From: an uncultured virus (IMG/VR IMGVR_UViG_3300027763_002034)
Taxonomy: Duplodnaviria; Heunggongvirae; Uroviricota; Caudoviricetes
DNA length: 20,000 nt
IMG/VR virus record: IMGVR_UViG_3300027763_002034
Location: 51,515 to 71,514 of that record
Strand: one strand, 5' to 3'
The notes under the pieces were generated by a model. It was not told the origin of the DNA, ran no database searches, and saw only the letters and a program-made list of their open reading frames with translations. Each line of letters begins with the position of its first letter. The first letter of the stretch is position 1. Shown here piece by piece: positions 3,792-20,000 of this stretch. A program made the position numbers and the translations under genes.

Positions 3792-3796
3792 TTATA

Positions 3797-4081
3797 TTAT
3801 AAATTTAATAGTTTATTTTTCATCTCTTTGTAAAAAGCCGATTCAACATTCCACATCATAAGGCTATCTTTTCGTTTATTTTCACCATTACATAACCATT
3901 CTTCACTTGCAATATCATCTATTTGGTATGCCACTTCTATAAATTCTTCTTCTTCCGTATATTGCCAATTATTAGAAGGGTTAGGATGAATCCAACTAAA
4001 ACACTTAACATTTACGATTTTATATTTTCCACCTTTAATGATAAAATTTTTCATTTCATCATATCCAAAATTAATTTCCAT
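3797..4081 (-). CDS. Hypothetical cytoplasmic protein
   Basis: 94-aa ORF that fills the gap between two secreted-protein genes with 5-nt spacers; no signal peptide. Confidence 0.65.
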   Translation of the reverse strand: MEINFGYDEMKNFIIKGGKYKIVNVKCFSWIHPNPSNNWQYTEEEEFIEVAYQIDDIASEEWLCNGENKRKDSLMMWNVESAFYKEMKNKLLNL

Positions 4082-4086
4082 AATTT

Positions 4087-6684
4087 TTAATTTATTTTTA
4101 TTTTTAATGTTTTTCCATCTTTATTAACTGCGTCCGTTGAACCTATTGAAATTAAACCCAATATGTTATCCAATTTTGTGTTTGACGAAAATGAAATCTT
4201 ATATGTTGTTGTCTTATCTAAACTTGTACTACCATCACTCACCAAAGAACCTAAATTAATGTAATTACCCTTGTTGGTTGCATAGTTGGTAGGTGAACCT
4301 TTTGTGGTAAATTGTATTCCTTTAAAATTTAAGACCGAATTATCATAGTTTAATTGAAATTGAGTTCCTACCACGTTTTGTTGTAATGGGTCAAATGTGA
4401 TGTAAGCATAAACACTATCACCAATTACTTCTGTTATTATAGATGCGTTAATATCGGTTGATATGGAGGTACTCATTGATGTTCTAACCGACATTGTCGT
4501 AATATTATTTGATGGTGGTGTTGCTGAATGTGATAAGTTTACATCACCTTTCCAACTAACCGCTAAATCATAGTTATAACTTATTACATCATCTAATAAA
4601 CTGAATGAGTATGTTTTTCCTTTATATGATGTGAATGAACTCCACGTTGACTTACCTATTAAATTATAGATTGAGTCCGGTATTACTTTTATTGTATTGT
4701 CTAATGTGTAACTACTAACTAAGTTTTGAGTACCTGTTAGATTTTGTAATAATTTGAAACAATCTGCTTCGTTAAAATATCCATCATCATTTACATCTGC
4801 ATTTATATACTGAATACCATATGTAAATTCATTTCCACTTTGATTTCCAAATATACCACCATTTGCCAATTCCTTAAATGCCAAATAAACATCCGATACC
4901 GTTACAACACTATTATATAAAGTTCTCAATTGAACACTATCATATTCATTCAATTCCATTCTATGTTGTTTGTATGTACCTAATTGTGTAAATCCAAATT
5001 CCGCTTTTACCCCATAAAATCCATTTGCACTTCTTAAACTTGATGTATATGATGAACCCGTATAATTAAATTGCGTCGGTGTATAAACATAATATTCAGC
5101 CCAACCATTTGGGTCATATGAATTAAATGTTACTGCACCATTCCATAAATCAAATAATTTTAATTTAGTTACATTACTCGGTGTTATATTTGTTCCTATA
5201 AATTCTCTTGCATCAACACCAATTCTATATCTACCATTTGATGCATCATAATCATAAATTACACACCATTCAACTTGACCAGGAGATGTAGTTGCTTTAT
5301 ATGACATTGGTGCCGATACAAATTGATAACTTAAATCCCAACCACCCCAATCAGATGTTGTTATACCATTACGGGTTGATGCGGTATAATTATTTTTTCC
5401 TTCAACTACTTTAATATAAATTTCTTTTGTTTGTCCAATTGTTAAAACTCCAGCATGTACAGCCATGGCAGGAATATAAGAGTCGTTTGTGTAAATATCA
5501 GTTCCCCATCCACCACCACTTGCACCGGTTACGGTCATTTTATATATTTTACCGATATCTGCAGTAGTGAATTGTGTCATATCACTTACTCCATTTAAAG
5601 GTATTGCAACTGACGTGAATATTTGTGCAGTATCTATTTGGTTTGAAAGATATACTTTACCCAAACCACTTAATGATTTATATCCATCTGCTGCAGTCCA
5701 ATTAGATGTGTTATCGTTTCTTTTGAATATTTGAGCGGTGAATTTAGTTTTATCAATTGAACTATTAAACTTAAATCCAAATAGTGCTTTTATAGTTTGT
5801 CCGTTTGAGTGAGCAACACTATTAGTATAAAATTCAGTAAATGTTGCATCATCAGGATTACTCCAAGTCCCATATTCAATTACATAAGCACAACTAAAGT
5901 TATTTGGTAAATCATTCCATTGAGTGCCACCACCCCATTTAGTTACTGCGTAATCTTCGTTACCACTATTGTTTGGTTCACCACCTGCCCAGTTATTATA
6001 TTGACCTGGAATGTTTCCGTTTGTTTGTCCATTGTTAATTTTAATCAGAGTTCCTTTTTCAGGTCCAGCATCTATTGTCCATCTAGCTTCACTTACTTCA
6101 TCGGTTAATGCAAACCAAATATTTGATTGAGGTACATTATTATAAATAAATGCATCTTCATCTGCAGAAGTAATTGTTACCAAATATCCTGTCTGTCCTT
6201 TGAATGTTGTTTGCAATGCTGCGGCTCTTGCTACTGTGTAATATGCTCCAGTTGATACGGGTTTGTAAAAGTGTCCGTTTACACCATTAAAATAATATCC
6301 CGTTGGGTTTACAGTTGCAGCCACTGAAATATTAATATCTCCCGTTATTGTTCCTGTGTTTATCTTTAATGTTGCTAATGCTGTATTGATACTAGCCATT
6401 GTTCCAGTTACCACCAAACGAGTTTTATTACCACTTAAAGTAAATCCACTTGCAGCAGTTAAACCTGTTGTTGTTCCTAAAGAAAATGTTGTACCGGATG
6501 GAGGATTAACTAAACTGATTGAAGTTAGTAAAGTTGCTGTTGTACTAAATCCAGTTAATTCAAATCCACTAGCGTCTTGTCCTGTGGTATTCACAGTAAA
6601 TGATTTAGGGTCTGGTGCCGTTACTGACTGACCAAACCCTAAAAATGATATAAATAAAAATAATACTATTAATAGTTTCTTCAT
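4087..6684 (-). CDS. Large secreted modular protein: C-type lectin, LCCL, dockerin-like and C-terminal cohesin-like domains
   Basis: Signal peptide (GFG-Q). CTL motifs NGHFY, GYLVTITSADE, YNNWAGGEPNN, WNDL. LCCL motif WGTDIYTNDSYIPAMAVHAG. EF-hand ADVNDDGYFNEAD. Cohesin-like VVGTQFQLNYDNSVLNF. Confidence 0.8.
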   Translation of the reverse strand: MKKLLIVLFLFISFLGFGQSVTAPDPKSFTVNTTGQDASGFELTGFSTTATLLTSISLVNPPSGTTFSLGTTTGLTAASGFTLSGNKTRLVVTGTMASINTALATLKINTGTITGDINISVAATVNPTGYYFNGVNGHFYKPVSTGAYYTVARAAALQTTFKGQTGYLVTITSADEDAFIYNNVPQSNIWFALTDEVSEARWTIDAGPEKGTLIKINNGQTNGNIPGQYNNWAGGEPNNSGNEDYAVTKWGGGTQWNDLPNNFSCAYVIEYGTWSNPDDATFTEFYTNSVAHSNGQTIKALFGFKFNSSIDKTKFTAQIFKRNDNTSNWTAADGYKSLSGLGKVYLSNQIDTAQIFTSVAIPLNGVSDMTQFTTADIGKIYKMTVTGASGGGWGTDIYTNDSYIPAMAVHAGVLTIGQTKEIYIKVVEGKNNYTASTRNGITTSDWGGWDLSYQFVSAPMSYKATTSPGQVEWCVIYDYDASNGRYRIGVDAREFIGTNITPSNVTKLKLFDLWNGAVTFNSYDPNGWAEYYVYTPTQFNYTGSSYTSSLRSANGFYGVKAEFGFTQLGTYKQHRMELNEYDSVQLRTLYNSVVTVSDVYLAFKELANGGIFGNQSGNEFTYGIQYINADVNDDGYFNEADCFKLLQNLTGTQNLVSSYTLDNTIKVIPDSIYNLIGKSTWSSFTSYKGKTYSFSLLDDVISYNYDLAVSWKGDVNLSHSATPPSNNITTMSVRTSMSTSISTDINASIITEVIGDSVYAYITFDPLQQNVVGTQFQLNYDNSVLNFKGIQFTTKGSPTNYATNKGNYINLGSLVSDGSTSLDKTTTYKISFSSNTKLDNILGLISIGSTDAVNKDGKTLKIKIN

Positions 6685-6687
6685 AAA

Positions 6688-8331
6688 TTATTCAACAATC
6701 AAATTAATCTTGTTTCCGTTTCCATCAACCGCGTCAGCTAAAACTGTATAGAATAAACCTGCGGTATTTGTTATGGTTTCTTTTGGTATAAAAGTTAATT
6801 TATATGGTGTTCCTATTTTAATTCTTGCTGTTTTTGTTTGATCCATAGAACCAAATGTTAATCTACCATCTCCGTTTGTTGAGAAGTTAGTTACACTTGG
6901 ACCCGCATCAAATGAGATATTATCAAATGTTAATTTTGTATTGTCGTATTGTAAGATTACTTCTAATCCCGCCAATCCATCTTTTGTTAATGTTCCTGTT
7001 AATACTACTTTACCATTAACTATTGTAGAATTTAATCCTAATGTTGCCTTTTCTGATGTTGGTGTATATGCCATTGATTGAACTGCAAATGATTTAATTG
7101 TTGTACCATCTTTTATTGAATTAAAGTATGTACCAGCTGCAATTCTACTTGCAATCTCAGTTGGGTCAGATGAATGAGACCAATCCAAATCTCCACCCCA
7201 AGCATAAACCATATCTACCGCTTGATTTGAAGATGTTACTTTTGTTTTATAAGTAGGAACACCATCTAACCAACTTTGATTTAATAATCCACTAAACCAT
7301 TTGTATAATCCACTATTTGTACTTAATGGAACCCATGCCTTTTCTTTTACATCAATACCCATCACATATGCAAACATATAATATGAATCACTCTCACTAA
7401 ATGTAGTTTTATCTTTTGTAATTTGAGCTATATTCTTTTGTAATGTTGGTCTTGTAAAATATGTTGGAGTACCTGTTAAATCTACTTGTGAAATACCTAA
7501 AAATGCTTTATATGCGTCCGATACTGTGATGATGTTATTCATAAACGACTTCCCTGTTGCTCCATACATCCATAATGCTAAACTATCACCTACTTTAACT
7601 CCCGATGTGAATGTTGCCTCACCACTTGCGTCCAATACTTTAGTCGCAATTGGTGTTACCGTAAAATCAATAGTACCATCCGTTTTTATTGGAAATAACG
7701 CAACACTATGTGCTGTAATATCGTATCCTGTTGGGAATAATACCCTTACTTTGAATTGAGATGTGTTACCCGTTACATTTGATAAAGACATTGTGCCTGG
7801 ATCAGTTGTAATTGGTGTGATATATGCACTCGCAGCGTCAATTGAATATGATAAGTCCAATTTATGAATGTTTGTGTATTCACCTAAATCTTTAATTACA
7901 TATTTTTGAGTTGCTATATCTCCGTTGATTGATGCATCCGTTCTTTGAACAGTTAATTGACCTGCGTTCCAATCTGAATTAGTTGCGTATCCCCAAGGTG
8001 TCGCACCATATTGAGCATATAAACTTGTTGCGGTAATACTATTTGCAGTACTTGCGGTAAACTTATAAGATGACCAACTTGTATAGAATGTTTGAACTGA
8101 TGTTCCTTGTGAGAACGTTGTTGAGACATATGCAAGTGCTTTGTTATTATAGTTATATCTTAACCAAAAATAACGAGGAGTTGTTGTGCCTCTAGCAACC
8201 GTATACTTTACCGAAACCGTATCACCAACCTTTAACCCTGTTGTTGGTGTTACAGATTGGTTAACCGTTAATTGCGCATTTGTTGCTATGGATATTACTA
8301 GTATTCCAAGTAGCGTTAATAATTTTTTCAT
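6688..8331 (-). CDS. Secreted protein with N- and C-terminal cohesin-like domains and a degenerate dockerin-like region
   Basis: Signal peptide (TNA-Q); VGDTVSV...LRYNYNNKAL; ITVSDAY; WGGDLDWSHS; LAGLEVILQYDNTKLTFDNI. The C-terminal half resembles that of 4087..6684. Confidence 0.75.
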   Translation of the reverse strand: MKKLLTLLGILVISIATNAQLTVNQSVTPTTGLKVGDTVSVKYTVARGTTTPRYFWLRYNYNNKALAYVSTTFSQGTSVQTFYTSWSSYKFTASTANSITATSLYAQYGATPWGYATNSDWNAGQLTVQRTDASINGDIATQKYVIKDLGEYTNIHKLDLSYSIDAASAYITPITTDPGTMSLSNVTGNTSQFKVRVLFPTGYDITAHSVALFPIKTDGTIDFTVTPIATKVLDASGEATFTSGVKVGDSLALWMYGATGKSFMNNIITVSDAYKAFLGISQVDLTGTPTYFTRPTLQKNIAQITKDKTTFSESDSYYMFAYVMGIDVKEKAWVPLSTNSGLYKWFSGLLNQSWLDGVPTYKTKVTSSNQAVDMVYAWGGDLDWSHSSDPTEIASRIAAGTYFNSIKDGTTIKSFAVQSMAYTPTSEKATLGLNSTIVNGKVVLTGTLTKDGLAGLEVILQYDNTKLTFDNISFDAGPSVTNFSTNGDGRLTFGSMDQTKTARIKIGTPYKLTFIPKETITNTAGLFYTVLADAVDGNGNKINLIVE

Positions 8332-8333
8332 AG

Positions 8334-8981
8334 TTACTTTTCAAATAATTTGGTTATTAGTTTATCTGCCGACTTTTTCAAAGCATTACTTAAAGATGTT
8401 TGATTGAATTGACCACCTTCATCCACGATTAATGTTGACATGGATATTTCTGAAGATGATTCTTCTACCATTATTTCTTTTTCTTTCTTACCATCCTTAT
8501 ATAAAATTCCTTTCATACGAATGACAACTTCTTCTTCATTTTTGTGAAAAACCGAAATGTTCTTTTTTGTTGTAAGAACGTCTAAATAAACGATTTGAAC
8601 TTTTAATTTGTACGGAGCCGACGGTGTCAAATCATACCCCTTCTCTTGTAAGAATTCTTCCAATGTGTTTTTAACACCGAAAGCTAAATTTCTATTACCT
8701 GCCAATTTACCCATCTTAACTTCATTGGTAACACTTTCAACCCAAATATGGTCTTCAGCATTGTATAATATATTTTCAGGTGAGTTCTTGAACGTACCGT
8801 CAATCCTCCACATAATCCAATTTGACACATCTCTTGTTATTTCTCTTTGACCTGAAAATTCCAAAACCGCCATTGATATCGCAAACAAAAGTGCGAATAT
8901 AATCCATAATAAAAACAAGGATAAAAATACCTGTGCTAATTTTTCTTTAATGTTAACCGATAATGTTCTTAATTTTTCCAT
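8334..8981 (-). CDS. Membrane-anchored alpha/beta envelope protein, possibly distantly CsgG/TolB-N-like
   Basis: ATG at 8981 preferred over the GTG at 9014. N-terminal TM, then GNRNLAFGVKNTLEEFL helix, beta-strands and a C-terminal LSNALKKSADKLI helix. The fold assignment is tentative. Confidence 0.6.
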   Translation of the reverse strand: MEKLRTLSVNIKEKLAQVFLSLFLLWIIFALLFAISMAVLEFSGQREITRDVSNWIMWRIDGTFKNSPENILYNAEDHIWVESVTNEVKMGKLAGNRNLAFGVKNTLEEFLQEKGYDLTPSAPYKLKVQIVYLDVLTTKKNISVFHKNEEEVVIRMKGILYKDGKKEKEIMVEESSSEISMSTLIVDEGGQFNQTSLSNALKKSADKLITKLFEK

Positions 8982-9148
8982 AATGTTCCGAGTTTTTAAT
9001 TCCCTCAGAACCACATATTATAATAATATGTCATATCTTGAGAGAGATACGTTTATTTTTTGTCTGTTTATAAATACTTTACTTTAATGGACTGACAATA
9101 GTCATTTATTATTTTTTAAAATAATTTCGTATATTCATATATATTTAT

Positions 9149-9156
9149 TATCTTTG
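9149..9156 (+). promoter_or_regulatory. Bacteroidota sigma-A -7 element driving the tRNA array
   Basis: TATCTTTG matches TAnnTTTG and ends 11 nt before tRNA-Thr; only an imperfect -33 element near 9125. Confidence 0.65.
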
Positions 9157-9167
9157 TAAAACAATAA

Positions 9168-9240: not shown

Positions 9241-9242
9241 CA

Positions 9243-9418
9243 ACAGGTGACGACGGTGGTGTAACCCCACTGTCTATGAATCCCAAAAGATCCGTCTGAC
9301 TCGCGAGGTAGGGCGGTGAGGGTAGAGTTACTATAAGTCGGGAGTAATTAACCCAATACGAAAATGTAACCGCAGATTATGTCTGTTATGATGTACATAG
9401 ATGGTACAAAAAACCTGT
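9243..9418 (+). ncRNA. Unidentified structured RNA in the tRNA array (spacer A)
   Basis: Closing helix ACAGGT/ACCTGT; hairpin GACGGTGG/CCACTGTC; nested GCGGT/ACCGC, GGGT/ACCC and AGTTACT/AGTAATT; TGTAC/GTACA. Confidence 0.55.
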
Positions 9419-9430
9419 AACTTTTTGAAA

Positions 9431-9495
9431 CTAACTCAACGAGGACTTTGTCAACCAGAGCAGTGACTCGGATGGTGCAACTTAAGGTGAGTTAG
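9431..9495 (+). ncRNA. Small structured element
   Basis: CTAACTCA (9431-9438) pairs with TGAGTTAG (9488-9495); internal CGAG/CTCG; a T8 tract follows nearby. Confidence 0.35.
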
Positions 9496-9521
9496 AATCA
9501 AATTTTTTTTGGCTATTAAAA

Positions 9522-9689: not shown

Positions 9690-9885
9690 ACGGTTCGGTT
9701 GGTCACCGAATAGTATGTCCAATATGAAGAGAAATGGTTTGACGACCATATGGAACTGATGATAGGACAAGGTTCTATTTAGATTGACCGTCTACTATAA
9801 GGGGTAAATATAGTAACCCAATGGTCTATTCCTAACCTGAAAGGGGACAGCTAAGACACCTGTGAGTTGGATAAATAAAGGTGTC
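9690..9885 (+). ncRNA. Unidentified structured RNA(s) in the tRNA array (spacer B) with two potential pseudoknots
   Basis: ACGGTT/GACCGT encloses TTCGGT/ACCGAA, TGTCC/GGACA and ATGGTT/GACCAT. Then TACTATA/TATAGTA crossed by GGGT/ACCC, and GACACCT/AGGTGTC crossed by CAGCT/AGTTG. Confidence 0.5.
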
Positions 9886-9888: not shown

Positions 9889-9972
9889 GGAAGAGTACTT
9901 CAGGCGGCCCTGAATCCAGTCTTGAAAACTGTGAGTACTGCAAGGTATGGCGATCGACACGTCACTCTTCCG
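9889..9972 (+). tRNA. trnS: tRNA-Ser(UGA), foldable as an 8/4 acceptor/T-stem type
   Basis: GGAAGAGT/ACTCTTCC (8 bp) with G73; 6-bp D stem TTCAGG/CCTGAA; loop CTTGAAA; long variable arm; T arm GGCG-ATCGACA-CGTC. Confidence 0.88.
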
Positions 9973-10112: not shown

Positions 10113-10119
10113 CAAATTT

Positions 10120-10782
10120 ATGAGTAAAACTTTATGGACATTCGGAGATTCATTTACACAAGGATTTTGTTGTGTACCGGTTGTGGGATACCCAATGCCC
10201 AAATATTATGAATATAAAAAATTAGGGGAAGATATTTGGTCTAATTTATTAAGTAAATATTTAGGTAACAAATTGATGAATAAAGGTTTAGCTGGAATTT
10301 CCAACGATTCTATAATCGATATAATCATAGATAATTGGGATTACATTAAACCAAATGATATTGTAATAATAGGAATAACCGCTAATGTTAGAATTGATGT
10401 TCCGATTAGAGAAAATAAAAAATTAAACATTGATAAACCATGTCTGTATTCTATGAGTAATCTTTTAAATTCGGAATTAATGAATGATATGACGGAAATA
10501 GAAAAAGAAACAATATTCAATTTTCAATACTATTTTTCGAATTCAGTGTTATATCAAGAAAGAAACTTAAAAAGATTTAATTATATAAAAAAATTATTAG
10601 AATTAAATGGAATTTTAGTGTTTATATGGGAATTGGAAAAAGAAATAAATAAATATGAAACAATATCAACCGCAACAAATGATGTTATAAAAGACAATCA
10701 TTGGTCATTTAAAGGAAATTATGATTTTTGTCAAAATATTATTATGAATTTAAAATTAGAATATAGTACCAAATTAATATAA
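10120..10782 (+). CDS. SGNH/GDSL hydrolase-like protein (putative esterase/acyltransferase)
   Basis: FGDSFT nucleophile block, NKGLAGISN block II, C-terminal DNHWS (DxH). Confidence 0.75.
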   Translation: MSKTLWTFGDSFTQGFCCVPVVGYPMPKYYEYKKLGEDIWSNLLSKYLGNKLMNKGLAGISNDSIIDIIIDNWDYIKPNDIVIIGITANVRIDVPIRENKKLNIDKPCLYSMSNLLNSELMNDMTEIEKETIFNFQYYFSNSVLYQERNLKRFNYIKKLLELNGILVFIWELEKEINKYETISTATNDVIKDNHWSFKGNYDFCQNIIMNLKLEYSTKLI

Positions 10783-10790
10783 TAAAAAAT

Positions 10791-10922
10791 AAGTAGATGA
10801 CGAAGGATTCAGTAGAAACTGATGAGGCCGTCACACAATATCGGGGTCGGTTATACTTTGGTTTAACCTATACGTGATGTAACCCGAGGCCAAACCCCTG
10901 CTTTGGGTGCTGTCATCTATTT
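10791..10922 (+). ncRNA. Unidentified structured intergenic RNA
   Basis: 11-bp closing helix AAGTAGATGAC/GTCATCTATTT; internal TCAGT/ACTGA, GGCC/GGCC and GGTTA/TAACC; crossing CGTCAC/GTGATG and TCGGG/CCCGA. GC-rich island in AT-rich DNA. Confidence 0.55.
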
Positions 10923-10968
10923 TACACCATCTCCTTTATTTTTTACGTTTTATTGTATATATTTCAGT

Positions 10969-12681
10969 ATGGCGTATAGAAAAATTTTATTCATTATTAA
11001 TAATGAAGAACAAAGAGAATTAGTCACATTTATTGATGATATGTTAGTTAGGTCTGATATTAATTCGAGCGTTTGGTTAATGACAAATATTGAAGATTCA
11101 TTATCCGTCATTAAGGAATATAACCCAAGTCATGTTTTTATTGAGGGTTCTTTTATTAATCCTACCGATTATAATCATCTACCTCATACGTTTCCAAAAG
11201 TAAAATTTATCATTAGATTATTGAATGATTTGACTTTTACAGATAAAGATAATATTAACTATGATTGGTTACCTGGTTATTATAGTTTTAATAACACAGT
11301 AATTGGTGTTAGTTCAACAAAAACATTTGATAATCTTAAAACATTTTTGAAAATAAAAAATCATTGGGTTGGTGAACAAGGTAGTGACAAAGTTCAGTAT
11401 TTACCAAATTATTACCCTATTGATTTAAAATCAAAAATTTTCAATAGACATAAAGATACTATTGACATTTCTTTTTTCGGGCACAATATACCATTAAAAA
11501 AATATATTTCAAATGCATTAGTCACTATCAATTTTGTTGATCACATGGACCATAAACAATTAAGATTTTATATCAATTCAAATGATCTTAATGAAACAGA
11601 TTTGGAAACGTTAAAAAATGTTTTTAACGGTTTATATACAAATCCTGAATTGGTTGAATGTAAATGGAAAACAAAAGAGGAATTTATTGAGATTTCATCT
11701 CAAATTGATATTGCATTAGGAAGTTCATTTTCAAACAATGATAACCTATATGAAATGATTATGGTTAGTCAAGGTACACAATTAATTACATCGAATGACA
11801 TACCTTGGGTAGAAAATTCACATTGTATCGACACCGAAATTATGAACAATATTTTTGTAAAATATGTTAGATTATATGAGGAACCATATTCAAATATATT
11901 TTCTTGTCAAGGTGGATTAAAAAAACAAATGGACATTAATAGAGATGTGTGGTTGGAATTTCTCTATAAAAATAAAATTGCAATTTTTATTAATGGTCAA
12001 TTTAGAGAGTTTGATACTGCGGTAAAATCATGGGGATTTTTAGAGGAATTTGATTATGATATATATGTGTCCACTTGGAGTAAATCTAAACAAGTAAATA
12101 AGAGATTAGATATTGATATTGAAGAAGAGATTACTAGTGATATGATTACTAAACATTTTCCAAATGCAAAAATATCAATTTTAAATCAAGATGATTATGA
12201 ATTTCCTGGTGACGTCACATATCATAATGGTAAACAAATATTTCATTGGAAAAATTGTTTACAGATGTCAAAAGAATCTGGTGTCAAATATGATCAAATA
12301 ATGTTAATTAGACCTGACGATTATTTATTCTATAATGAACCATATGAACATTTTTACCATTGTAAAGACGGAAGAATTATTTATGGTCAATCAAAAATAC
12401 ATATATCACCAAAAATGGAATATTTTCTTCCTGATTATTTTTTCTTCGGTAATTCGGTTCCAATGTCTAAAATGATTGAAACTTTATCAATTGATATGCC
12501 AGGTAATATTCACACCGAATTGGCATTACACATCCTATCGTTGGGTTTTGATGTATTTCAAATAAGTGGATTTGACCTATGTTTAGTTAGACCGACCACA
12601 CGAGGTATTGATGAGTCGACAATAACCAGAGAACTACTCCAAGAAAAATGGGAAAAGTGGGGAAACAACACATTAATTTAA
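10969..12681 (+). CDS. Fusion of a divergent glycosyltransferase-like (GT-B) region and a C-terminal 'GQFR...STW...RPD' putative glycan transferase domain
   Basis: ATG at 10969 preferred, since the TTG at 10903 lies inside the structured RNA. N-terminal half has YLPNYYP...DISFFG...DIALGSSF. C-terminal domain has KIAIFINGQFR, DIYVSTW and YDQIMLIRPD. Confidence 0.65.
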   Translation: MAYRKILFIINNEEQRELVTFIDDMLVRSDINSSVWLMTNIEDSLSVIKEYNPSHVFIEGSFINPTDYNHLPHTFPKVKFIIRLLNDLTFTDKDNINYDWLPGYYSFNNTVIGVSSTKTFDNLKTFLKIKNHWVGEQGSDKVQYLPNYYPIDLKSKIFNRHKDTIDISFFGHNIPLKKYISNALVTINFVDHMDHKQLRFYINSNDLNETDLETLKNVFNGLYTNPELVECKWKTKEEFIEISSQIDIALGSSFSNNDNLYEMIMVSQGTQLITSNDIPWVENSHCIDTEIMNNIFVKYVRLYEEPYSNIFSCQGGLKKQMDINRDVWLEFLYKNKIAIFINGQFREFDTAVKSWGFLEEFDYDIYVSTWSKSKQVNKRLDIDIEEEITSDMITKHFPNAKISILNQDDYEFPGDVTYHNGKQIFHWKNCLQMSKESGVKYDQIMLIRPDDYLFYNEPYEHFYHCKDGRIIYGQSKIHISPKMEYFLPDYFFFGNSVPMSKMIETLSIDMPGNIHTELALHILSLGFDVFQISGFDLCLVRPTTRGIDESTITRELLQEKWEKWGNNTLI

Positions 12682-12686
12682 TTCAA

Positions 12687-13103
12687 ATGAAAAAAATTTA
12701 TACGGGAGGTACGTTTGATTTATTTCATAAAGGACATGTTAATTTCTTAAGACAATGTAGGGAAATTGGTGATTATCTAATCATATCACTTAACACCGAC
12801 GATTTTATATATCGATATAAAGGTTCGTATCCCGTTATTTCATATGAAGACCGTAAAGAAGTTTTATTGTCTTGTAAGTATGTTGATGAAGTTGTCCCTA
12901 ACACTGATGGTGAAGATTCGAAACCGACAATATTAAATGTAAAACCAAATTTTATAATAATTGGTAGTGATTGGGCAAAAAAAGATTATTATAAACAAAT
13001 GAATTTTACACAAAAATGGTTAGACGATAATAACATAATTTTGGTCTACTTACCGTACACCGATAGTATTTCAACTACATTAATAAAAACTAAATTAAAA
13101 TGA
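12687..13103 (+). CDS. tagD: Cytidylyltransferase, TagD (glycerol-3-phosphate cytidylyltransferase)-like
   Basis: YTGGTFDLFHKGH (HxGH), GSDW and ISTT motifs; start reassigned to ATG at 12687. Confidence 0.85.
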   Translation: MKKIYTGGTFDLFHKGHVNFLRQCREIGDYLIISLNTDDFIYRYKGSYPVISYEDRKEVLLSCKYVDEVVPNTDGEDSKPTILNVKPNFIIIGSDWAKKDYYKQMNFTQKWLDDNNIILVYLPYTDSISTTLIKTKLK

Positions 13104-13873
13104 AGATAGCAGTTTTTGTTTATGGTATGTATAGGGAATTTGATGTTGCGGTTAAATCGTGGGACTTTCTTTTTAAAATGGATTGTGATTTTTATTTCTC
13201 AACTTGGTCAAAATCAACAATATTACATTATCCAACTAACACTTTTATTGAAAAACCCGTTTCAATAGAAATGATAACAAATCATATACCAAATGCAAAG
13301 GTTGAGTTATTAGACGAAGAAAAATATATGATTGACAATGAAAACGTCAAAGATGATTATAACAATAAGTTAGTTAATTCAGAAAAGATGATACGCCATT
13401 GGAAAAATTGTTTAAAAATGTGTAAAAATTCTGAAATTAAATATGATCAAATAATGTTAATAAGACCTGATGATTATTTTTTATTAAAGTTTCCATATGA
13501 AAATTTAATAAAATTTAATAGGGATAATGTTTTATATGGTAAAGGTAATGGAATTCAAATTGGCCACGATTTAACACACACAATTAATGATGTTTTTTTT
13601 ATTGGTAATGAATCTACAATTAGTCGTTTTATTGAGGTGTTACCCAACAAATTGGATAAGTTTAATGGTAATAATATCCATAGTGAATTATCGGAATCTA
13701 TTTTATTAAATAAATTTTTTTATGTCGGTATCATTGGATTCGATTCATATATAATAAGACCAAATATTGTTGAACTAAATGGTATTGACTTAAATGAAGA
13801 AAATTTACACCTTAAATTATATGAATGGGCACAAAAAAAGGAATCTATAACATTTTTAAATAATATAAAATAA
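13100..13873 (+). CDS. Putative glycan transferase-like protein, paralog 2
   Basis: KIAVFVYGMYREFD, DFYFSTW, YDQIMLIRPDD; ATGA overlap with the upstream gene. Confidence 0.7.
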   Translation: MKIAVFVYGMYREFDVAVKSWDFLFKMDCDFYFSTWSKSTILHYPTNTFIEKPVSIEMITNHIPNAKVELLDEEKYMIDNENVKDDYNNKLVNSEKMIRHWKNCLKMCKNSEIKYDQIMLIRPDDYFLLKFPYENLIKFNRDNVLYGKGNGIQIGHDLTHTINDVFFIGNESTISRFIEVLPNKLDKFNGNNIHSELSESILLNKFFYVGIIGFDSYIIRPNIVELNGIDLNEENLHLKLYEWAQKKESITFLNNIK

Positions 13874-14625
13874 TGAAAACCGCAATATTCGTTTATGGAC
13901 AATATAGAGATTTTGACGTAGTGGTGAAATCTTGGAATTTTTTAAATAACCTCGATTGTGATGTTTATTTCTCAACGTGGGACAAATCGTATCAAGAAAA
14001 TCCAGCACTTAACTATTACATTGAAAAAGATGTAACTGAAGATATGATATTAAAATATGTCCCCAATGCTAAAATATCAATTTTAAACGAAAAAAACCAT
14101 TACGGTAATAAATTACTACAAACATATAATCCTGAAAAAATGATTTTTCATTTTAAAAAGTGTTTGGAGATGTCCAAAGAAAATAACATTAAATATGATT
14201 TTATAATGTTAACTAGAACGGATAACTTTATAAAATGTAATTTTCCAAGTGAGAATTTTTATTTAATGAATAAAAAAGATAGAATTTACGGTACCAATTC
14301 TGTGGAATTATGTGGACCTAAAAAATTCTTTGTTATGGACATCTTTTTTTGGGGGGATTATGATGTTATGTCAAATTTTATAAACACACTAAAAGATAAT
14401 ACTAAAGATATTCACAATGGTTTAGCTGAACATATTTTTGAATCTAATTTATTTGTTGAAAGTACAAGTGATAAAATATTTATCGCATCTGTTAGAGGTA
14501 ATATTAAAGAATTAAATGAAGAAGAACAATTAATACAAGAATTAGTTTTTTTGAAAACTATTGATTGGAACGATTCGTTATTTAAATATATACGTAAATT
14601 AGAAAACAATGAAAACAATACATAA
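13873..14625 (+). CDS. Putative glycan transferase-like protein, paralog 3
   Basis: KTAIFVYGQYRDFD, DVYFSTW, YDFIMLTRTD; TAATG stop/start coupling. Confidence 0.7.
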   Translation: MKTAIFVYGQYRDFDVVVKSWNFLNNLDCDVYFSTWDKSYQENPALNYYIEKDVTEDMILKYVPNAKISILNEKNHYGNKLLQTYNPEKMIFHFKKCLEMSKENNIKYDFIMLTRTDNFIKCNFPSENFYLMNKKDRIYGTNSVELCGPKKFFVMDIFFWGDYDVMSNFINTLKDNTKDIHNGLAEHIFESNLFVESTSDKIFIASVRGNIKELNEEEQLIQELVFLKTIDWNDSLFKYIRKLENNENNT

Positions 14626-16519
14626 ACCTTGGGGTAAAGAAGAATGGATAGAATTGAACGATTCTTATTGTTATAAAAGAATTTATATAAATGCAGGATA
14701 CAAAACATCCTACCAATATCATATATATAAAAAAGAGACAAATTATATTATTTTGGGTCAAGCGGAAGTTTGGTTAGAAAATGATGAAGGGATTATCGAG
14801 AAAAAAATAATGGGTCCAAATGATTATTTTAATGTTAGTCCACCTAAAAAACATAGAGTGATTGCATTAACTGATTTAATTATGCAGGAGGTTTCAACAC
14901 CCGAAGTTAATGATGTTATTCGAATTGATGACGAATTTAGTAGAGGTGACGGTAAAATTGAAGGTGAACATAAAAATCCGGCGGTTTTAATTTTATGTGC
15001 TGGATTAGGTACAAGATTAAAAAACCTAACAAAAAATATTAATAAAGCATTATTACCAATTAATAATAAAGCAATCATTTCACATATAATTGATAAATTT
15101 CCAAACACATATGATTTTGTCATTGCTTTAGGTTATAAAGGAGATTCCATAAAGAAATATTGTGAAATAACTCATCCTAAACACAAATTTACATTTGTGG
15201 AAATAGATAAATATGATTCGGAAACAACAGGTCCTGGTTATAGTGCATTAATGTGTTCTAAACATTTACAAAAACCATTCTATTTTATAATGGGAGATTG
15301 TTTAATAGATTCACCTTTACCACACATAGATGGTAATTGGTTAGGTGTTTCGCCAACATCTTTTCCTGAAAAATATTCAACTATCAATGTCAATAATGAT
15401 GATGATATCATTTCATTTATGGATAAGAATATAGATGGATACGATTTGGCGTTCATTGGGTTAGGTTCAATTTTTAATTATGAAACATTTTGGAGTGAAC
15501 TACAAAGTAACATAAAAAATAATGAATTAGTTTCTGCGTTTGAAAATCCAAAAAACTATCCAACATTTAAAATAAAAAAATTAAAGTGGTTGGACACCGG
15601 AAACTTAGATGATTTGGAAAAAGCTAAAGAATATTTTAATGACAACCCATTATCTTTGAAAAAAGATGTGAGTGAGATAACATACAAAGATAATAATATT
15701 TTTTTAAAGTTCACTCCCGATACCGAAATACTCAAAAGGAGAATCATTAGGGCAAAACATTTAGGTCATAACATACCTAATAATTTTGGTTTTACCGATG
15801 ATTTCATTTATTATGATTGGATTGAAGGAGATACTCTATATGAGTTAGATGATTTATTCCTATTTAAAAATTTCTTAAGGGTTTTTGAGGAGAAAATTAA
15901 AATTACAACTAAAGGTAATGTTGATGATATACGTAAATTCTATATAGATAAAACAAATAAAAGAATTAATTTATTTTTACCAAAGTATCATTCAGATTAT
16001 TATAACTTAGAGCATGAAATTAACGGTATTAAATTACCATCTATGAAATCAGTACTTGAAACTATCGATTTCCAACAACTTGATAACAATCCTTTTTATA
16101 ATCTATTTCATGGTGATTTACATTTTGATAATATAGTCTATAATAAAAATGAAGACAAATATTATTACATTGATTGGAGAGATAGTTTTGGTGATTCGGT
16201 GGATTTTGGTGATTTATATTATGATTTATCTAAATTTTATGGTGGTTTACTCATACCGTATAATCTAATGAAAAATGAGAATTTAATAACATATAATGAA
16301 GGTTCATATTCAATTAATTATTCCTACCCAATATCGGAAAATTTAATTAAGTTTAAAACAATATACGAAAAATGGGTTATTGATAATGGATTTGATTTGA
16401 AAAAGATTAAATTCATTTCAGGATTAATTTTTCTTAATATGTCACCATTACATGACGGTAAATTTGGTAAAATGTTATGGTTTAAATCGATAGAAATGTT
16501 ATCCAATTATGATAAATAA
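14609..16519 (+). CDS. Three-domain fusion: cupin, nucleotidyltransferase and APH/choline-kinase-like phosphotransferase
   Basis: KPWGKE...SYQYH...KHRV...EVSTPE (cupin); LCAGLGTRL...KALLP...GD (NTP transferase); HGDLHFDN...YIDWR...YDLSK (kinase). Confidence 0.85.
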   Translation: MKTIHKPWGKEEWIELNDSYCYKRIYINAGYKTSYQYHIYKKETNYIILGQAEVWLENDEGIIEKKIMGPNDYFNVSPPKKHRVIALTDLIMQEVSTPEVNDVIRIDDEFSRGDGKIEGEHKNPAVLILCAGLGTRLKNLTKNINKALLPINNKAIISHIIDKFPNTYDFVIALGYKGDSIKKYCEITHPKHKFTFVEIDKYDSETTGPGYSALMCSKHLQKPFYFIMGDCLIDSPLPHIDGNWLGVSPTSFPEKYSTINVNNDDDIISFMDKNIDGYDLAFIGLGSIFNYETFWSELQSNIKNNELVSAFENPKNYPTFKIKKLKWLDTGNLDDLEKAKEYFNDNPLSLKKDVSEITYKDNNIFLKFTPDTEILKRRIIRAKHLGHNIPNNFGFTDDFIYYDWIEGDTLYELDDLFLFKNFLRVFEEKIKITTKGNVDDIRKFYIDKTNKRINLFLPKYHSDYYNLEHEINGIKLPSMKSVLETIDFQQLDNNPFYNLFHGDLHFDNIVYNKNEDKYYYIDWRDSFGDSVDFGDLYYDLSKFYGGLLIPYNLMKNENLITYNEGSYSINYSYPISENLIKFKTIYEKWVIDNGFDLKKIKFISGLIFLNMSPLHDGKFGKMLWFKSIEMLSNYDK

Positions 16520-17132
16520 AGACACTAAAATATACGGTTCATTTTCTAATAATCCAGGTAATAATGGGTGCGAATTTTTTAATAAAGGATTTAAAAAACA
16601 TAAAATTGATGCAATTTATAAATCTTTCTATTCAATAGATATAAAAAAAACAATTGGGTCAGTTAAACATCTTGGTTTTTCGGGGTTTGCATTAAGTATG
16701 CCATTAAAAATGGAAGTTGTACCATATCTCGATGTTCTTTCAGAATCGGTTAAATCTATTGGTGCTGCAAATACTGTATTATTAAAAGATGATTTATTAT
16801 GGGGTTATAATACCGATTACATCGGTGTTTATGAATATTTTAAAAATAAGGATTTAAAATTTGTAAGTATAATTGGTGATGGTGGATTTAGTAAATCAAT
16901 ACAATTTACTTTTGATATGTTAAAAATTGGTTATGTTATATATAGAAGAAATGACGTAGATAGTATTGATGAGGTTGAAAATCAATATTTTATAAACGCA
17001 ACACCAATAGAAATCACATCTAAAAAAAATATAATAATTGACGGAAGACCATTTACTGAAACAGGAAAAGAAATATTCAAATATCAAGCATTAGAGCAAT
17101 TTAAATTATACACTGGAAAAGATTATGAGTAG
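16509..17132 (+). CDS. Shikimate dehydrogenase (AroE)-like oxidoreductase, shortened
   Basis: SMPLK, IGAANT, YNTDY, IIGDGGFS, INATP and QALEQF motifs; 207 aa. Confidence 0.8.
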   Translation: MINKDTKIYGSFSNNPGNNGCEFFNKGFKKHKIDAIYKSFYSIDIKKTIGSVKHLGFSGFALSMPLKMEVVPYLDVLSESVKSIGAANTVLLKDDLLWGYNTDYIGVYEYFKNKDLKFVSIIGDGGFSKSIQFTFDMLKIGYVIYRRNDVDSIDEVENQYFINATPIEITSKKNIIIDGRPFTETGKEIFKYQALEQFKLYTGKDYE

Positions 17133-18087
17133 AGTTAGATATTTTATATGTCCAATGTCTAAAAACATTGTTGATAGTGTCATTGAAATGGATTCACCTT
17201 TATTAGGTTTATTACCAAGCTTAAGACAAATTGATTACAACGGTGGGTATGTTAATGAATGGAATACTGAAACGTTTTATCAATATGTAAGGAAGAAATC
17301 AGGTATTATTATTGAGAGAGATCATAGTGGAATTGGTCAAAGTGATAACAATTTGTATGAATCATTTAATGCCGATTCCAAATATACCAACATCATTCAC
17401 ATTGACCCATGGAAACACTACCCATTTTTTGAAGATGGGTTTAAGGAAACAGTTAATAGCATCAACTATATTCATAATTTAAATCCAAATATGAAATATG
17501 AAATTGGTACGGAAGAGGCGTTAAGACCTTTTAATGTAAAAGAGTTAGTTGAACTTATAAATGAATTAAAGATTGAATTAACTCCAGTGCAATTTAAAAA
17601 CATAGAATATATTTGTATTCAATCGGGAGTCGGTTTAGATTTAGTTAATAGAAAAAACACGGGAACATTTAATCTTGAAAAATTAAGATTAATGAACGAA
17701 GTTTGTAAAAAATTTGGTAAGAGGTCTAAAGAACATAATGGTGATTACCTTAGTAAAGAAGAAATTGAAATCAGATTCGATAATGGGTTGGATTCATTAA
17801 ACATTGGGCCCGAATTTGCACAGATAGAAACACAGATTTTTTTAGATTTAATGACCGATTCAGAAATTGACGATTTCTATAATGTTTGTTTAGAGTCAGG
17901 TAAATGGAAAAAATGGGTAAACAATGATTTTGATATTACAAATAAAGAAAATTTAATATCGATTTGTGGTCATTATAACTATGGCAAATTAAAAATCAAT
18001 TCCATATATTTGGATATTGAACATATTGATAATTACATAAAAAGTGAATTAAAGAAAAAATTAAAACAACTACTAAGTTATGTCTAA
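17125..18087 (+). CDS. GatZ/KbaZ-like TIM-barrel sugar-phosphate aldolase/epimerase
   Basis: RQIDYNGGY, ERDHSG, IHIDP, YEIGTEE, KEHNGDY and NIGPEF motifs. Confidence 0.7.
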   Translation: MSRVRYFICPMSKNIVDSVIEMDSPLLGLLPSLRQIDYNGGYVNEWNTETFYQYVRKKSGIIIERDHSGIGQSDNNLYESFNADSKYTNIIHIDPWKHYPFFEDGFKETVNSINYIHNLNPNMKYEIGTEEALRPFNVKELVELINELKIELTPVQFKNIEYICIQSGVGLDLVNRKNTGTFNLEKLRLMNEVCKKFGKRSKEHNGDYLSKEEIEIRFDNGLDSLNIGPEFAQIETQIFLDLMTDSEIDDFYNVCLESGKWKKWVNNDFDITNKENLISICGHYNYGKLKINSIYLDIEHIDNYIKSELKKKLKQLLSYV

Positions 18088-18436
18088 AATATATGCATTT
18101 GATTTAGATGATACTTTATGTTATAGAGATAAAAATGTCGAACATTTAGGTCCCGACAAGTATAACCATTGTCATCCAATTAATGAGATGATAGATAAAG
18201 TAAATAAACTTTATGATGATGGGAATACTATTTATATATATACCGCTAGAGGTATGGGGCAATTTAATGGGGATTTAGTTAAAGTTTATAACTCATTATA
18301 TGTCATCACTTTAGATAGCTTAAAAAAATGGGGTATTAAACATCATGGTCTTGTTATGGGTAAGTTACATTATGATTATTTAATAGACGATAAGGCTTTA
18401 TCGATAACGGATTTTACAAATAATTTGTATTTGTGA
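18080..18436 (+). CDS. Small HAD-superfamily phosphatase (capsule-biosynthesis phosphatase-like)
   Basis: FDLDDTL, YTARG, MGK and IDDK motifs I-IV; 118 aa with no cap domain. Confidence 0.85.
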   Translation: MSKIYAFDLDDTLCYRDKNVEHLGPDKYNHCHPINEMIDKVNKLYDDGNTIYIYTARGMGQFNGDLVKVYNSLYVITLDSLKKWGIKHHGLVMGKLHYDYLIDDKALSITDFTNNLYL

Positions 18437-18455
18437 TATTTTTATTGTATTTTTG
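18424..18455 (+). promoter_or_regulatory. Bacteroidota -33/-7 promoter
   Basis: TTTG (18424-18427), 20-nt spacer, TATTTTTG (18448-18455), upstream of the 18471 ATG. Confidence 0.6.
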
Positions 18456-18470
18456 TAAAAATCAGAAATT

Positions 18471-18701
18471 ATGTTAGTTGGATATTATGTTATTTGTGTG
18501 ATTTATTGTTTCTACCAATTGTTTAAAAATTTAAATCATAGGTATAGTAATGACCCTACAGGTGGTTCACCAGAACTAGATTCTATAATGGTTTTAGTAA
18601 TGGCTTGGGTGTTGGCCCCCATTGACGTTTCATTAACTTGGATTCGTTGGTATAAAGAAGCTGAGGAAGTAAGAATTAGACAAAATAAAAGAGTTTTATA
18701 A
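18471..18701 (+). CDS. Small two-TM membrane protein
   Basis: 76 aa; two hydrophobic segments and a basic C-terminus; has its own promoter. Confidence 0.7.
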   Translation: MLVGYYVICVIYCFYQLFKNLNHRYSNDPTGGSPELDSIMVLVMAWVLAPIDVSLTWIRWYKEAEEVRIRQNKRVL

Positions 18702-18703
18702 GA

Positions 18704-18815
18704 TATGGGTCTACGATGGAAGACCGCAAGGAGAATAGATGTTTTTCATCCATCGAATGTCAATAGTGCTGACTGATACGGAGAGACAAGACAGAAGTGA
18801 AGGAACTGTCCCTAT
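18704..18815 (+). ncRNA. Putative short structured intergenic RNA
   Basis: CGATGGA/TCCATCG encloses a CC-GCAA-GG GNRA hairpin; GTCA/TGAC and GACAG/CTGTC stems follow. Confidence 0.4.
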
Positions 18816-18865
18816 TGATTATTTTGTTTTACAAATTTAAATGTGTATATTATATTAATTAAAAC

Positions 18866-19081
18866 ATGGAGGAAACTATGAAGTGCTTAAAAAATACAAA
18901 AACAGGAAACATCATCAGAGTATCTGATACACAAGCTAACCAAATGGCAGGAAACCAATGGAAGTATGTACCTAAAACAGAGTGGAAAGGTTCACCAAAA
19001 GAAGAAACTGTAAGTGAATCAACAGAAGTTGTTACTTCTAACAAATCAAAAGAAAAAAAATCTAAAAAAGTTTCAAAATAA
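18866..19081 (+). CDS. Small basic hypothetical protein
   Basis: 71 aa (alternative start at 18878); KTGNIIRVSD...WKYVPKTEWK core with a Lys-rich tail. Confidence 0.75.
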   Translation: MEETMKCLKNTKTGNIIRVSDTQANQMAGNQWKYVPKTEWKGSPKEETVSESTEVVTSNKSKEKKSKKVSK

Positions 19082-19113
19082 TTTGGAATATTAGAAAACA
19101 TTTCTTATCTTTG
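19082..19113 (+). promoter_or_regulatory. Consensus Bacteroidota -33/-7 promoter upstream of the large ncRNA
   Basis: TTTG (19082-19085), 20-nt spacer, TATCTTTG (19106-19113). No plus-strand ORF follows. Confidence 0.75.
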
Positions 19114-19144
19114 TAAAAGAAGGGTAAATAACCCAAAAGATAAA

Positions 19145-19153
19145 GTTCTTTGA
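19145..19153 (+). promoter_or_regulatory. boxA-like antitermination motif
   Basis: GTTCTTTGA about 30 nt downstream of the promoter, resembling rRNA-leader boxA. Confidence 0.4.
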
Positions 19154-19160
19154 ATAAAAA

Positions 19161-19976
19161 TATTGGCCGTCTATAGTCAATAAAATAAACCATGAAAGTG
19201 GGATAAAGTGACAAACCCTTGGTTGGGGCAAGTTGCGGATTCAGTAATGGATCTCGAGTAGACAAGTGGAATATCGTTTGACCTGAAGTAGTGAGGGTAA
19301 CTCCGTAGCGAAATGGTTAGATGACCAAGCAATCCGAGTTGTTTGGTTGAGGTGGGAACACCAATAAGAATAATCCATAGAATAAATGTGAGAAGTATAG
19401 TTATCCAATTATACAATTGCGTAATTCAATACAATGGTGGTCTTAAAACCGTAGCGTCGTAAGATGGAAGGTATGACAAAAAACAGGTGGTGCTGTTAGT
19501 GTCCTTGACTAAATCCTACCAAGGGTTTAATCTCGAAGGAAACCAAAAATATGGAGGTGGGGACACTTCAGAAAGTAGTTTAGTATCGAGTTGTTCAAAA
19601 GATAACTTGGCTAGGTGACGAACCACTACTTTCCCAATTCGGAAAACTAAATTTTTATTTTGGTATAAAAATCATACATAAAAAGAAAAAGTGTTCGTCA
19701 GTCATTGGAGACAGGTGACTACTTAGTCGTGAGAGGTTCACGGCCATAAAGGGACTCAATCCCAATATGATTTTTAAGAAAGTTCTCTAAACCCGCAAGG
19801 TTGAAACAGGTCGGCAGATTTGTTGAGTAATAAGTAATAAAAGAGTATCTGATGACTTTAGGATTGGTTAATCTAATTGACCGTCATTGATCGGTACGAA
19901 TCAAAAGTTCGTGGAAAAGGAAAGAAACAAATAATGTTCCTAAGTCGGTTGTTAAAACTTGTATTCTCAGAGTTTT
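19161..19976 (+). ncRNA. Giant structured non-coding RNA, GOLLD/ROOL-like (size closer to GOLLD)
   Basis: Over 800 nt with no plus-strand ORF, dense G-U-containing helices, GNRA loops (GGAA, GTAA, GGGA, GCAA), long-range GAAAGTAGT/ACTACTTTC and a terminal AAAACT/AGTTTT hairpin. Family not verified. Confidence 0.65.
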
Positions 19977-20000
19977 ATTTTCTTTGTTTAGAAAAACAAA

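What the first reader, a model, noticed from the sequence alone, without database searches (positions are those of the whole stretch)
19082..19976. ~830-nt giant structured ncRNA with its own host-type promoter (GOLLD/ROOL-like or a new class)
Seen: a perfect TTTG-N20-TATCTTTG promoter is followed by over 800 nt with no plus-strand ORF, visibly richer in G than the flanks. Helices include TATTGGC/GTCAATA (19161-19182), GACCAAGCAAT/GTTGTTTGGTT (19323-19348), GGTG-GGAA-CACC, CGTC-GTAA-GATG, GAAAGTAGT/ACTACTTTC (19571-19633), CGTGA/TCACG and AAAACT/AGTTTT. G-U pairs and GNRA loops indicate that the plus strand is the structured one. An A/U-rich linker (~19645-19690) splits it into two domains. 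Known: GOLLD (~800 nt) and ROOL (~600 nt) are giant RNAs of unknown function, often found in phages near tRNA genes and reported to form multimeric RNA-only assemblies. Inference: this is a Bacteroidota-phage member or relative.
Basis: partly seen in the sequence, partly recalled or inferred. Interest (0 to 1): 0.85.

Follow-up and report, generated by a model that had tools for sequence, protein, structure and literature searches.

The report
GOLLD RNA of huge lake phage
This gene-free stretch is an ordinary member of GOLLD, a known family of giant phage RNAs that build hollow RNA cages of unknown purpose; its one extra feature is a start signal like the one its likely hosts put before their ribosomal RNA.

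Summary
Real, and of a known family. Window 19571-19973 (+) matches the whole Rfam GOLLD model (RF02032, 294 bits, cut-off 150). Rfam does not model the 5' part (19164-19570); by eye it follows the env-38 GOLLD solved as a 14-mer cage. The RNA is about 810 nt. In 68 aligned sequences (window plus 67 phage homologs) all 50 top covarying column pairs are base pairs (background 1.7%). Sites for all ten env-38 cage bridges can be located; B4 is shorter. The contig is a fragment of a huge tailed phage (98% to a 336-kb record), probably infecting Bacteroidota. It lies upstream of 61 of 66 homologs (shuffles 0.45) and in 16 of 20 Bacteroidia 16S leaders, so the phage probably borrows the host rRNA antitermination complex. 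Metatranscriptome contigs cover the RNA. The A/U linker lies inside the 3' region, not at the domain boundary. This scan already reported GOLLD with an rRNA-style leader on other DNA (e1-8125475, e1-5895524). Cage function stays inferred.

The parts
19082..19113 (+). Bacteroidota-type -33/-7 promoter (TTTG-N20-TATCTTTG); start predicted 4-5 nt downstream, about 19118-19119
   Evidence: -7 element upstream of 59 of 66 homologs; consensus and spacing from PMC6847099 passages; start not mapped
19122..19134 (+). small leader hairpin ahead of boxA (boxB-like position; sequence not conserved)
   Evidence: sequence; 37 of 56 homologs with promoter and box fold something of -1.5 kcal/mol or lower between them, no shuffle control
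19145..19153 (+). boxA-like motif GTTCTTTGA, as in Bacteroidia rRNA leaders and spacers
   Evidence: 61 of 66 homologs, shuffle mean 0.45; 16 of 20 Bacteroidia 16S leaders, 6 of 9 spacers; binding of Nus factors not tested
19164..19570 (+). GOLLD 5' domain of the env-38 type (cap of the cage), not covered by the Rfam model
   Evidence: 107 pairs in 24 helices, 98.0% of cells paired, 85 pairs changed on both sides; by-eye match to env-38 from its first nucleotides
19571..19973 (+). GOLLD conserved 3' domain
   Evidence: Rfam RF02032, 294.2 bits, E 1.3e-83, model 1-416 of 416
19644..19684 (+). variable A/U-rich linker inside the 3' region (disordered and facing the cage interior in env-38); 40 nt here, no embedded tRNA
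   Evidence: 30-57 nt in the 68 aligned sequences; env-38 residues 497-538
19333..19643 (+). long-range pseudoknot: loop 19333-19337 pairs with 19639-19643, linking the 5' and 3' regions
   Evidence: 19336-19640 canonical in 67 of 67 with four pair types
19685..19757 (+). bridge B7 kissing pair: 19685-19686 with loop 19756-19757 (intermolecular in env-38)
   Evidence: 19686-19756: CG 33, GC 29, AU 6 of 68; env-38 B7 in Suppl. Table 2
19404..19563 (+). bridge B4 kissing loops 19404-19406 with 19561-19563 (3 bp here, 5 bp in env-38)
   Evidence: 68, 68 and 64 of 68 canonical; next pair canonical in only 15 of 68
19488..19521 (+). bridge B5 kissing loops 19488-19491 with 19518-19521
   Evidence: all four pairs canonical in 68 of 68 but nearly invariant, so no covariation support
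19793..19817 (+). self-kissing loops L21a (GC at 19795-19796, bridge B8) and L21b (GC at 19814-19815, bridge B9)
   Evidence: env-38 B8 and B9

Best explanation
A full-length, env-38-type GOLLD RNA gene of a huge freshwater tailed phage, probably of Bacteroidota. Shown: family membership, conserved secondary structure in both domains, and conserved sites for the inter-chain bridges. Inferred, step 1: host RNA polymerase starts at the -33/-7 promoter near 19118. Inferred, step 2: the boxA-like motif loads the host NusB:S10 rRNA antitermination complex, which lets an untranslated RNA of over 800 nt escape Rho and fold during transcription as rRNA does. Inferred, step 3: 12-14 copies assemble into a hollow RNA-only cage like env-38. 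For the job of the cage my best guess (about 35%) is that it belongs to the phage's stable-RNA kit with tRNAs and tmRNA and binds or shelters translation components to keep phage protein synthesis going. The confidence given is for identity plus cage architecture; the boxA step is about 0.6.
For: Rfam GOLLD 294 bits. 109 full-length homolog loci among the 332 loci fetched, 68 sequences at under 95% identity, 781-834 nt. Top 50 of 50 and 87 of 100 structure-blind covarying pairs are canonical, background 1.7%. The window keeps 199 of 206 consensus pairs. Bridge sites conserved, B7 covarying. env-38 forms a D7 14-mer and S. agalactiae GOLLD a 12-mer. Phage head genes on the contig. boxA statistics; two close relatives carry promoter plus boxA before their tRNA cluster too. 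tRNA calls within 300 nt of 21 of 67 homologs; tmRNA about 2 kb downstream in both near-complete relatives examined. Contigs of 4 of 4 laid metatranscriptomes cover the RNA. Ribosome pull-down is reported second-hand in PMC12286853.
Against: No function of any GOLLD is established. Oligomer state was not tested; B4 is 3 bp instead of 5, and the P11a extension differs from env-38, so the cage size may differ. Most bridge loops are invariant, which fits binding but gives no covariation proof. In this window the nearest tRNA is 9 kb away, and 46 of 67 homologs have no tRNA within 300 nt. The linker (30-57 nt) cannot hold a tRNA in this clade. 5 of 66 homologs lack the strict boxA, and the window's own tRNA-cluster promoter lacks it. 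Homologs were collected with exact motifs taken from the window, so they are env-38-like by construction, and they are related (effective number about 31). RNA data are contigs: no strand, no ends, no reliable level.
Confidence: 0.88

Rival explanations
1. Same RNA, different job: a very abundant, nuclease-resistant decoy or sponge that ties up host RNA-sensing or RNA-cleaving defence proteins during infection.
For: Many surface loops are invariant without covariation; contigs of high depth cover it in metatranscriptomes; phage RNA decoys are known (recalled, no call).
Against: The invariant loops are already explained by the inter-chain bridges of env-38. No defence-linked gene sits beside it. 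Neighbours are tRNAs and tmRNA in part of the homologs.
Confidence: 0.25
2. Structural RNA of virion assembly or DNA packaging, like the phi29 prohead RNA.
For: It multimerises by kissing loops, and GOLLD expression rises during lysis (PMC12286853).
Against: It lies about 36 kb from the head and terminase genes on this contig, uses a host-type promoter, and env-38 forms a closed D7 cage, not an open ring.
Confidence: 0.1
3. The boxA-like motif is a processing-stem half or a relic of a captured rRNA promoter and recruits no Nus factors.
For: The motif is missing in 5 of 66 homologs and from the window's tRNA-cluster promoter. Bacteroidota boxA function was not found tested in the passages read.
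Against: It is kept while its distance to the RNA varies from 17 to 121 nt and its flanks diverge; downstream flanks hold it in only 4 of 67. I saw no convincing complementary trailer in the window.
Confidence: 0.3
4. A new class of giant RNA, or ROOL, an intron or an rRNA fragment.
For: The 5' 400 nt have no Rfam hit, and GenBank phages hold only one partial match, 74% over 23% of the query.
Against: The Rfam GOLLD model is 416 positions and covers only the 3' domain, which matches in full; the 5' part follows env-38 GOLLD.
Confidence: 0.01

Closest known systems
GOLLD RNA, Rfam RF02032; env-38 GOLLD (PDB 9MEE, 833 nt, 14-mer; Kretsch et al. 2025, PMC12286853)
   Same: Full 3' domain match; by eye a colinear 5' domain from the first helix on; similar length; sites for bridges B1-B10 present; variable A/U linker at the same place; phage origin.
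   Different: About 810 nt; B4 kissing loop 3 bp instead of 5; different P11a extension with a GUAA loop; an internal loop in P4 (5 of 8 consensus pairs kept); nearest tRNA 9 kb away instead of directly upstream; own promoter and boxA-like leader, which the parts of the paper I read do not describe.
Streptococcus agalactiae GOLLD (700 nt, 12-mer, PDB 9L0R; from the review PMC12990946)
   Same: Conserved 3' domain and cage-forming contacts.
   Different: It lacks P9, P11a-c and P21b; the window has the P11 arms and both L21a and L21b loops, so it is the env-38 type.
Leader of bacterial rRNA operons (promoter, 5' hairpin, boxA; NusB:S10 antitermination complex)
   Same: Same promoter type and the same GTTCTTTRA motif as 16 of 20 Bacteroidia 16S leaders.
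   Different: It precedes a phage non-coding RNA, not rRNA; no leader-trailer helix was found; Nus binding is untested.
ROOL RNA (8-mer or 6-mer cages)
   Same: Large ornate phage RNA forming RNA-only cages near tRNA islands.
   Different: Unrelated sequence and structure; no ROOL hit at cut-off.

Membership tests
GOLLD RNA | Conserved 3' domain scoring above the Rfam RF02032 cut-off | tested here: met
   294.2 bits against 150, model 1-416 of 416
GOLLD RNA | About 400-nt ornate 5' domain upstream of the 3' domain, total about 800 nt | tested here: met
   107 pairs, 98% paired, 85 with two-sided change (structure derived from the same alignment); by-eye colinearity with env-38; no computed alignment to env-38
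GOLLD RNA | Covariation-supported helices and pseudoknots | tested here: met
   50 of the top 50 MI-APC pairs canonical, background 1.7%; 42 helices including crossing ones
GOLLD RNA | Sequence sites for the inter-chain bridges B1-B10 of env-38 | tested here: met
   Donor loops and kissing pairs counted; mapping to env-38 residues by eye from Suppl. Table 2; A-minor receptors checked only by eye; B4 shortened
GOLLD RNA | Assembly into an RNA-only cage | not testable with these tools
   needs mass photometry or cryo-EM
GOLLD RNA | Encoded by a phage or prophage, often near tRNA genes | tested here: met
   PHROGs major head, protease, portal and terminase hits; tRNA cluster 9 kb upstream here, about 1 kb in relative G001
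GOLLD RNA | Expressed as a discrete abundant transcript | tested here: inconclusive
   contigs of 4 of 4 RNA runs cover it, but contigs give no strand, ends or level
ROOL / OLE / introns / rRNA | Match to the respective Rfam models | tested here: not met
   only GOLLD and four tRNAs reach cut-off in the window; 5' part best E 0.4
rRNA-operon-type leader (boxA antitermination) | boxA motif of the host type downstream of the promoter | tested here: met
   the name boxA rests on likeness to the E. coli and B. subtilis consensus in PMC5725501 and PMC13753749 and on its place in rrn leaders and spacers
rRNA-operon-type leader (boxA antitermination) | Recruits NusB:S10 and suppresses termination | not testable with these tools
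   needs binding and transcription assays

The most novel reading that the evidence does not exclude
Huge Bacteroidota phages transcribe GOLLD, and often their tRNA clusters, as mimics of host rRNA operons. A conserved boxA recruits the host Nus antitermination and RNA-chaperone complex so that the giant RNA is made and folded like a ribosomal RNA. This gives the first host factors for GOLLD biogenesis and ties the cage to the ribosome-production pathway.
Probability: 0.55. Interest if true: 0.5.

Novelty: new member of a known kind. Interest (0 to 1): 0.22.

Why it matters
As a sequence it adds one more GOLLD to a large, known and structurally solved family, and near-identical copies were already reported by this scan. 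The function of GOLLD cages is an open question, and this locus does not settle it. Two points are useful. The conserved boxA-like leader gives a concrete, testable link to host Nus factors. The RNA is also present in lake metatranscriptomes as near-identical sequence, so field samples could be used to map its ends and timing.

Tried and rejected
Rfam E-value scan of the 5' part: 5 chance-level hits, best E 0.4. GenBank phage search: 1 record, partial, so no cultured phage to name a host. Motif scan of genome contigs: 92 matches, only 2 are homologs (L258, 1.6-kb contig of a Cyanobium MAG; L272, 2.1-kb contig of a Bacteroidetes MAG); they disagree and are probably mis-binned, so not used for host assignment. 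Of the 120 loci from the 3' motif scan, 38 matched the window's 5' domain; the rest are chance matches or short loci. T9SS sorting-domain hit for ORF 2173-2538 is below cut-off (17.6 against 23 bits), so weak host evidence. Three minus-strand ORFs of 55-79 aa overlap the RNA; not pursued, since the alignment is full of indels that are not multiples of three (by eye). The combined promoter-plus-boxA pattern is not specific by itself: in the Bacteroidia genome G009 it gave 7 matches against 11 for the reversed control; the evidence is its fixed place before GOLLD and 16S. The first rrn check was thin (1 of 2 leaders), so it was repeated on a wider sample. Depth was not used to rank genes. Bins without cover are no evidence of silence. 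Embedded-tRNA storage model rejected for this clade (linker 30-57 nt). The original GOLLD paper and the Mycobacterium GOLLD paper were not held.

Full report
Observation. The described features are in the sequence. The promoter motif is at 19082-19113, with the -33/-7 consensus of Bacteroidota and a start expected 4-5 nt after the -7 element (PMC6847099 passages). No plus-strand ORF of 50 aa or more overlaps the region. G content is 23.3% against 15.8-18.6% in the flanks. The plus strand folds better than shuffles (z -3.13) and better than the minus strand (z -1.67).

Identity. Rfam gives one non-tRNA hit in the window: GOLLD RF02032 at 19571-19973, 294.2 bits against a cut-off of 150, all 416 model positions. 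The model covers only the 3' domain; the upstream 400 nt have no meaningful Rfam hit. I read the env-38 GOLLD sequence and contact table in the supplement of Kretsch et al. 2025 and compared them by eye. The window follows env-38 from its first helix at about 19164, so the RNA is a full-length env-38-type GOLLD of about 810 nt. The A/U linker corresponds to the disordered env-38 linker (497-538) inside the 3' region; the domain boundary is at 19570/19571.

Homologs and covariation. A profile built from first hits found 109 full-length homolog loci among these 332, all viral. With the window, 68 sequences remain at under 95% identity, 781-834 nt, 57-85% identical to the window. A structure-blind mutual-information ranking gave canonical pairs for 50 of the top 50, 87 of 100 and 109 of 150 column pairs, against 1.7% for random variable columns. 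Extending these seeds gave 206 pairs in 42 helices, of which the window keeps 199. For the 5' domain alone: 107 pairs, 98.0% of cells paired, 85 pairs changed on both sides, against 36-42% paired in slid controls. That structure was derived from the same alignment, the sequences are related (effective number about 31), and they were collected with window-derived motifs, so these counts lean in favour.

Cage contacts. Mapped by eye from Suppl. Table 2 and counted. B1 donor loop GAAA is in 68 of 68. The B2 G and C are invariant. B3 loop GGAA is in 67 of 68. B4 has three pairs canonical in 68, 68 and 64 of 68, while the next pair is canonical in only 15, so the window has 3 bp where env-38 has 5. 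B5 has four pairs in 68 of 68, nearly invariant. The B6 and B10 A-rich loops are conserved. B7 19686-19756 reads CG 33, GC 29, AU 6. The B8 loop has GC in 58 and a shifted CG in 7, as the paper describes. The B9 columns read GC or CG in 68 of 68. A 5-bp pseudoknot joins loop 19333-19337 to 19639-19643. Cage formation itself is inferred from env-38 (14-mer) and S. agalactiae GOLLD (12-mer).

Genome and host. The window is the last 20 kb of a 71.5-kb virus record. It encodes major head protein, head protease, portal, terminase and DNA polymerase (5 of 7 proteins scanned hit PHROGs). The region is 98% identical to a 335,630-base record rated complete. A Bacteroidota host is inferred from the promoter, from Shine-Dalgarno-like words before only 3 of 68 ORFs (their absence is typical of the phylum, abstract start of PMC6847099) and from the leader below. 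In relative G001 the order is tRNA cluster, three small genes, GOLLD, terminator-like hairpin 74 nt downstream, two genes, tmRNA. The window has an extra 8.3-kb block between the tRNAs and GOLLD. ARAGORN calls a tRNA within 300 nt of 21 of 67 homologs, one of them without an assigned anticodon.

The leader. Between promoter and RNA lie a small hairpin (19122-19134) and GTTCTTTGA (19145-19153). GTTCTTTRA is within 300 nt upstream of 61 of 66 homologs (one of 67 dropped for a short flank), against 0.45 in shuffles and 4 of 67 in downstream flanks. Its distance to the RNA varies from 17 to 121 nt. It was not part of the search motifs. The same motif is in 16 of 20 Bacteroidia 16S leaders with at least 300 nt of flank (20 of 20 with one relaxed position; shuffle mean 0.16; 2 of 22 loci dropped as too short) and in 6 of 9 spacers. 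It resembles the boxA consensus of E. coli and B. subtilis, which binds NusB:S10 (passages of PMC5725501 and PMC13753749). Relatives G001 and G002 also have promoter plus boxA before their tRNA cluster, whereas the window's copy lacks it. I infer that the phage loads the host rRNA antitermination complex on its long untranslated RNA (about 0.6). Binding is untested.

Expression. 14 RNA runs of 14 studies (lake, freshwater, river, estuary, one marine) hold 42-59% of the sampled words of 18700-20000. In the 4 runs laid, contigs cover the RNA, including pieces of 199-460 nt with 0-3 differences at depths of about 150-1,600. Near-identical pieces of neighbouring coding DNA in X1, X2 and X4 have depths of 2-6. 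This fits an abundant RNA, but the runs were chosen for holding it, depths sum over related phages, and contigs show no strand, ends or level.

Mechanism. Shown: GOLLD identity, structure, bridge sites. Inferred: host-polymerase transcription, boxA-assisted elongation, cage assembly. For the job of the cage I favour support of translation (about 35%), from the company of tRNAs and tmRNA, the rRNA-like leader and a ribosome pull-down cited in PMC12286853. A defence decoy (25%) and a packaging RNA (10%) are the rivals; the rest is unassigned. Storage of an embedded tRNA does not apply here, since the linker is 30-57 nt in all 68 sequences.

Literature seen. PMC12286853: main text parts 1-3 of 9, search passages, supplement file 1 (search and part 2 of 2), file 3 (parts 1 and 5 of 5). 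PMC12990946, PMC5725501, PMC13753749, PMC5389517, PMC6847099: passages only. Not seen: Weinberg 2009, Morgado 2020, the Chen thesis and Wang 2025; these or their supplements may already describe the leader. Searches for GOLLD with boxA (four unrelated plant papers) and for boxA with phage non-coding RNA (15 of 64 listed, none on this) found no report in the held library, and 'promoter' occurs once in PMC12286853, for T7.

Earlier findings of this scan. Two look-alike windows were already filed as GOLLD and one as GOLLD behind an rRNA-style leader. I found the boxA, before those look-ups; they are AI notes and add no independent support.

Verdict. Interest 0.22; the boxA leader is the only part with novelty, and it has been noted before in this scan.

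Noticed in passing
window 9889-9971 (+): tRNA with a UGA anticodon (Ser) missed by ARAGORN; by eye an 8-bp acceptor stem, 4-bp T stem and long D stem, scoring 37 bits to tRNA-Sec, below cut-off. Fits the 8/4 tRNA-Ser described from phages (PMC5389517).
   Followed up: partly
window 9242-9500 (+): Structured, GC-richer non-coding stretch between tRNA-Thr and tRNA-Asn with no Rfam hit; 80% identical over 274 nt in G003 and present in G001 and G002; covered by RNA contigs. Candidate unnamed RNA.
   Followed up: partly
window 9690-9885 (+): Second hairpin-rich non-coding stretch in the tRNA cluster, no Rfam hit; RNA contigs cover it, one of them skipping 9756-9826.
   Followed up: no
window 10795-10935 (+): GC-rich intergenic multi-hairpin closed by a long-range stem, no credible Rfam hit; inside the block that G001 lacks.
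   Followed up: no
window 10115-18456: 8.3-kb block absent from close relative G001: nucleotidyl- and cytidylyltransferases, a shikimate-dehydrogenase-like gene and a HAD phosphatase; looks like a variable sugar or capsule modification island.
   Followed up: partly
window 9149-9167; L354, L352: The tRNA-cluster promoter has the -7 element but no boxA in the window, while G001 and G002 have boxA there in the form seen in Bacteroidia rRNA spacers.
   Followed up: yes
window 18866-19081 (+): 71-aa basic ORF of no known family directly upstream of the GOLLD promoter; similar small ORFs sit at the same place in G001 and G003 (by eye).
   Followed up: partly
window 2173-9014 (-): Operon of secreted or lipoprotein-like ORFs with cohesin, LCCL and a weak T9SS sorting-domain match, unusual for a phage and conserved in G001 and partly G003.
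   Followed up: no
window 19980-20000; L335 8450-8545: After the GOLLD 3' end comes a hairpin followed by a GTGGTGG-like motif shared by many close homologs, then a terminator-like hairpin in G001. The window's contig ends before it.
   Followed up: partly
window 19285-19312: By eye the hairpin around bridge B2 resembles a stretch of the raiA motif RNA printed in the same supplement; probably a shared bulged-G module, not tested.
   Followed up: no
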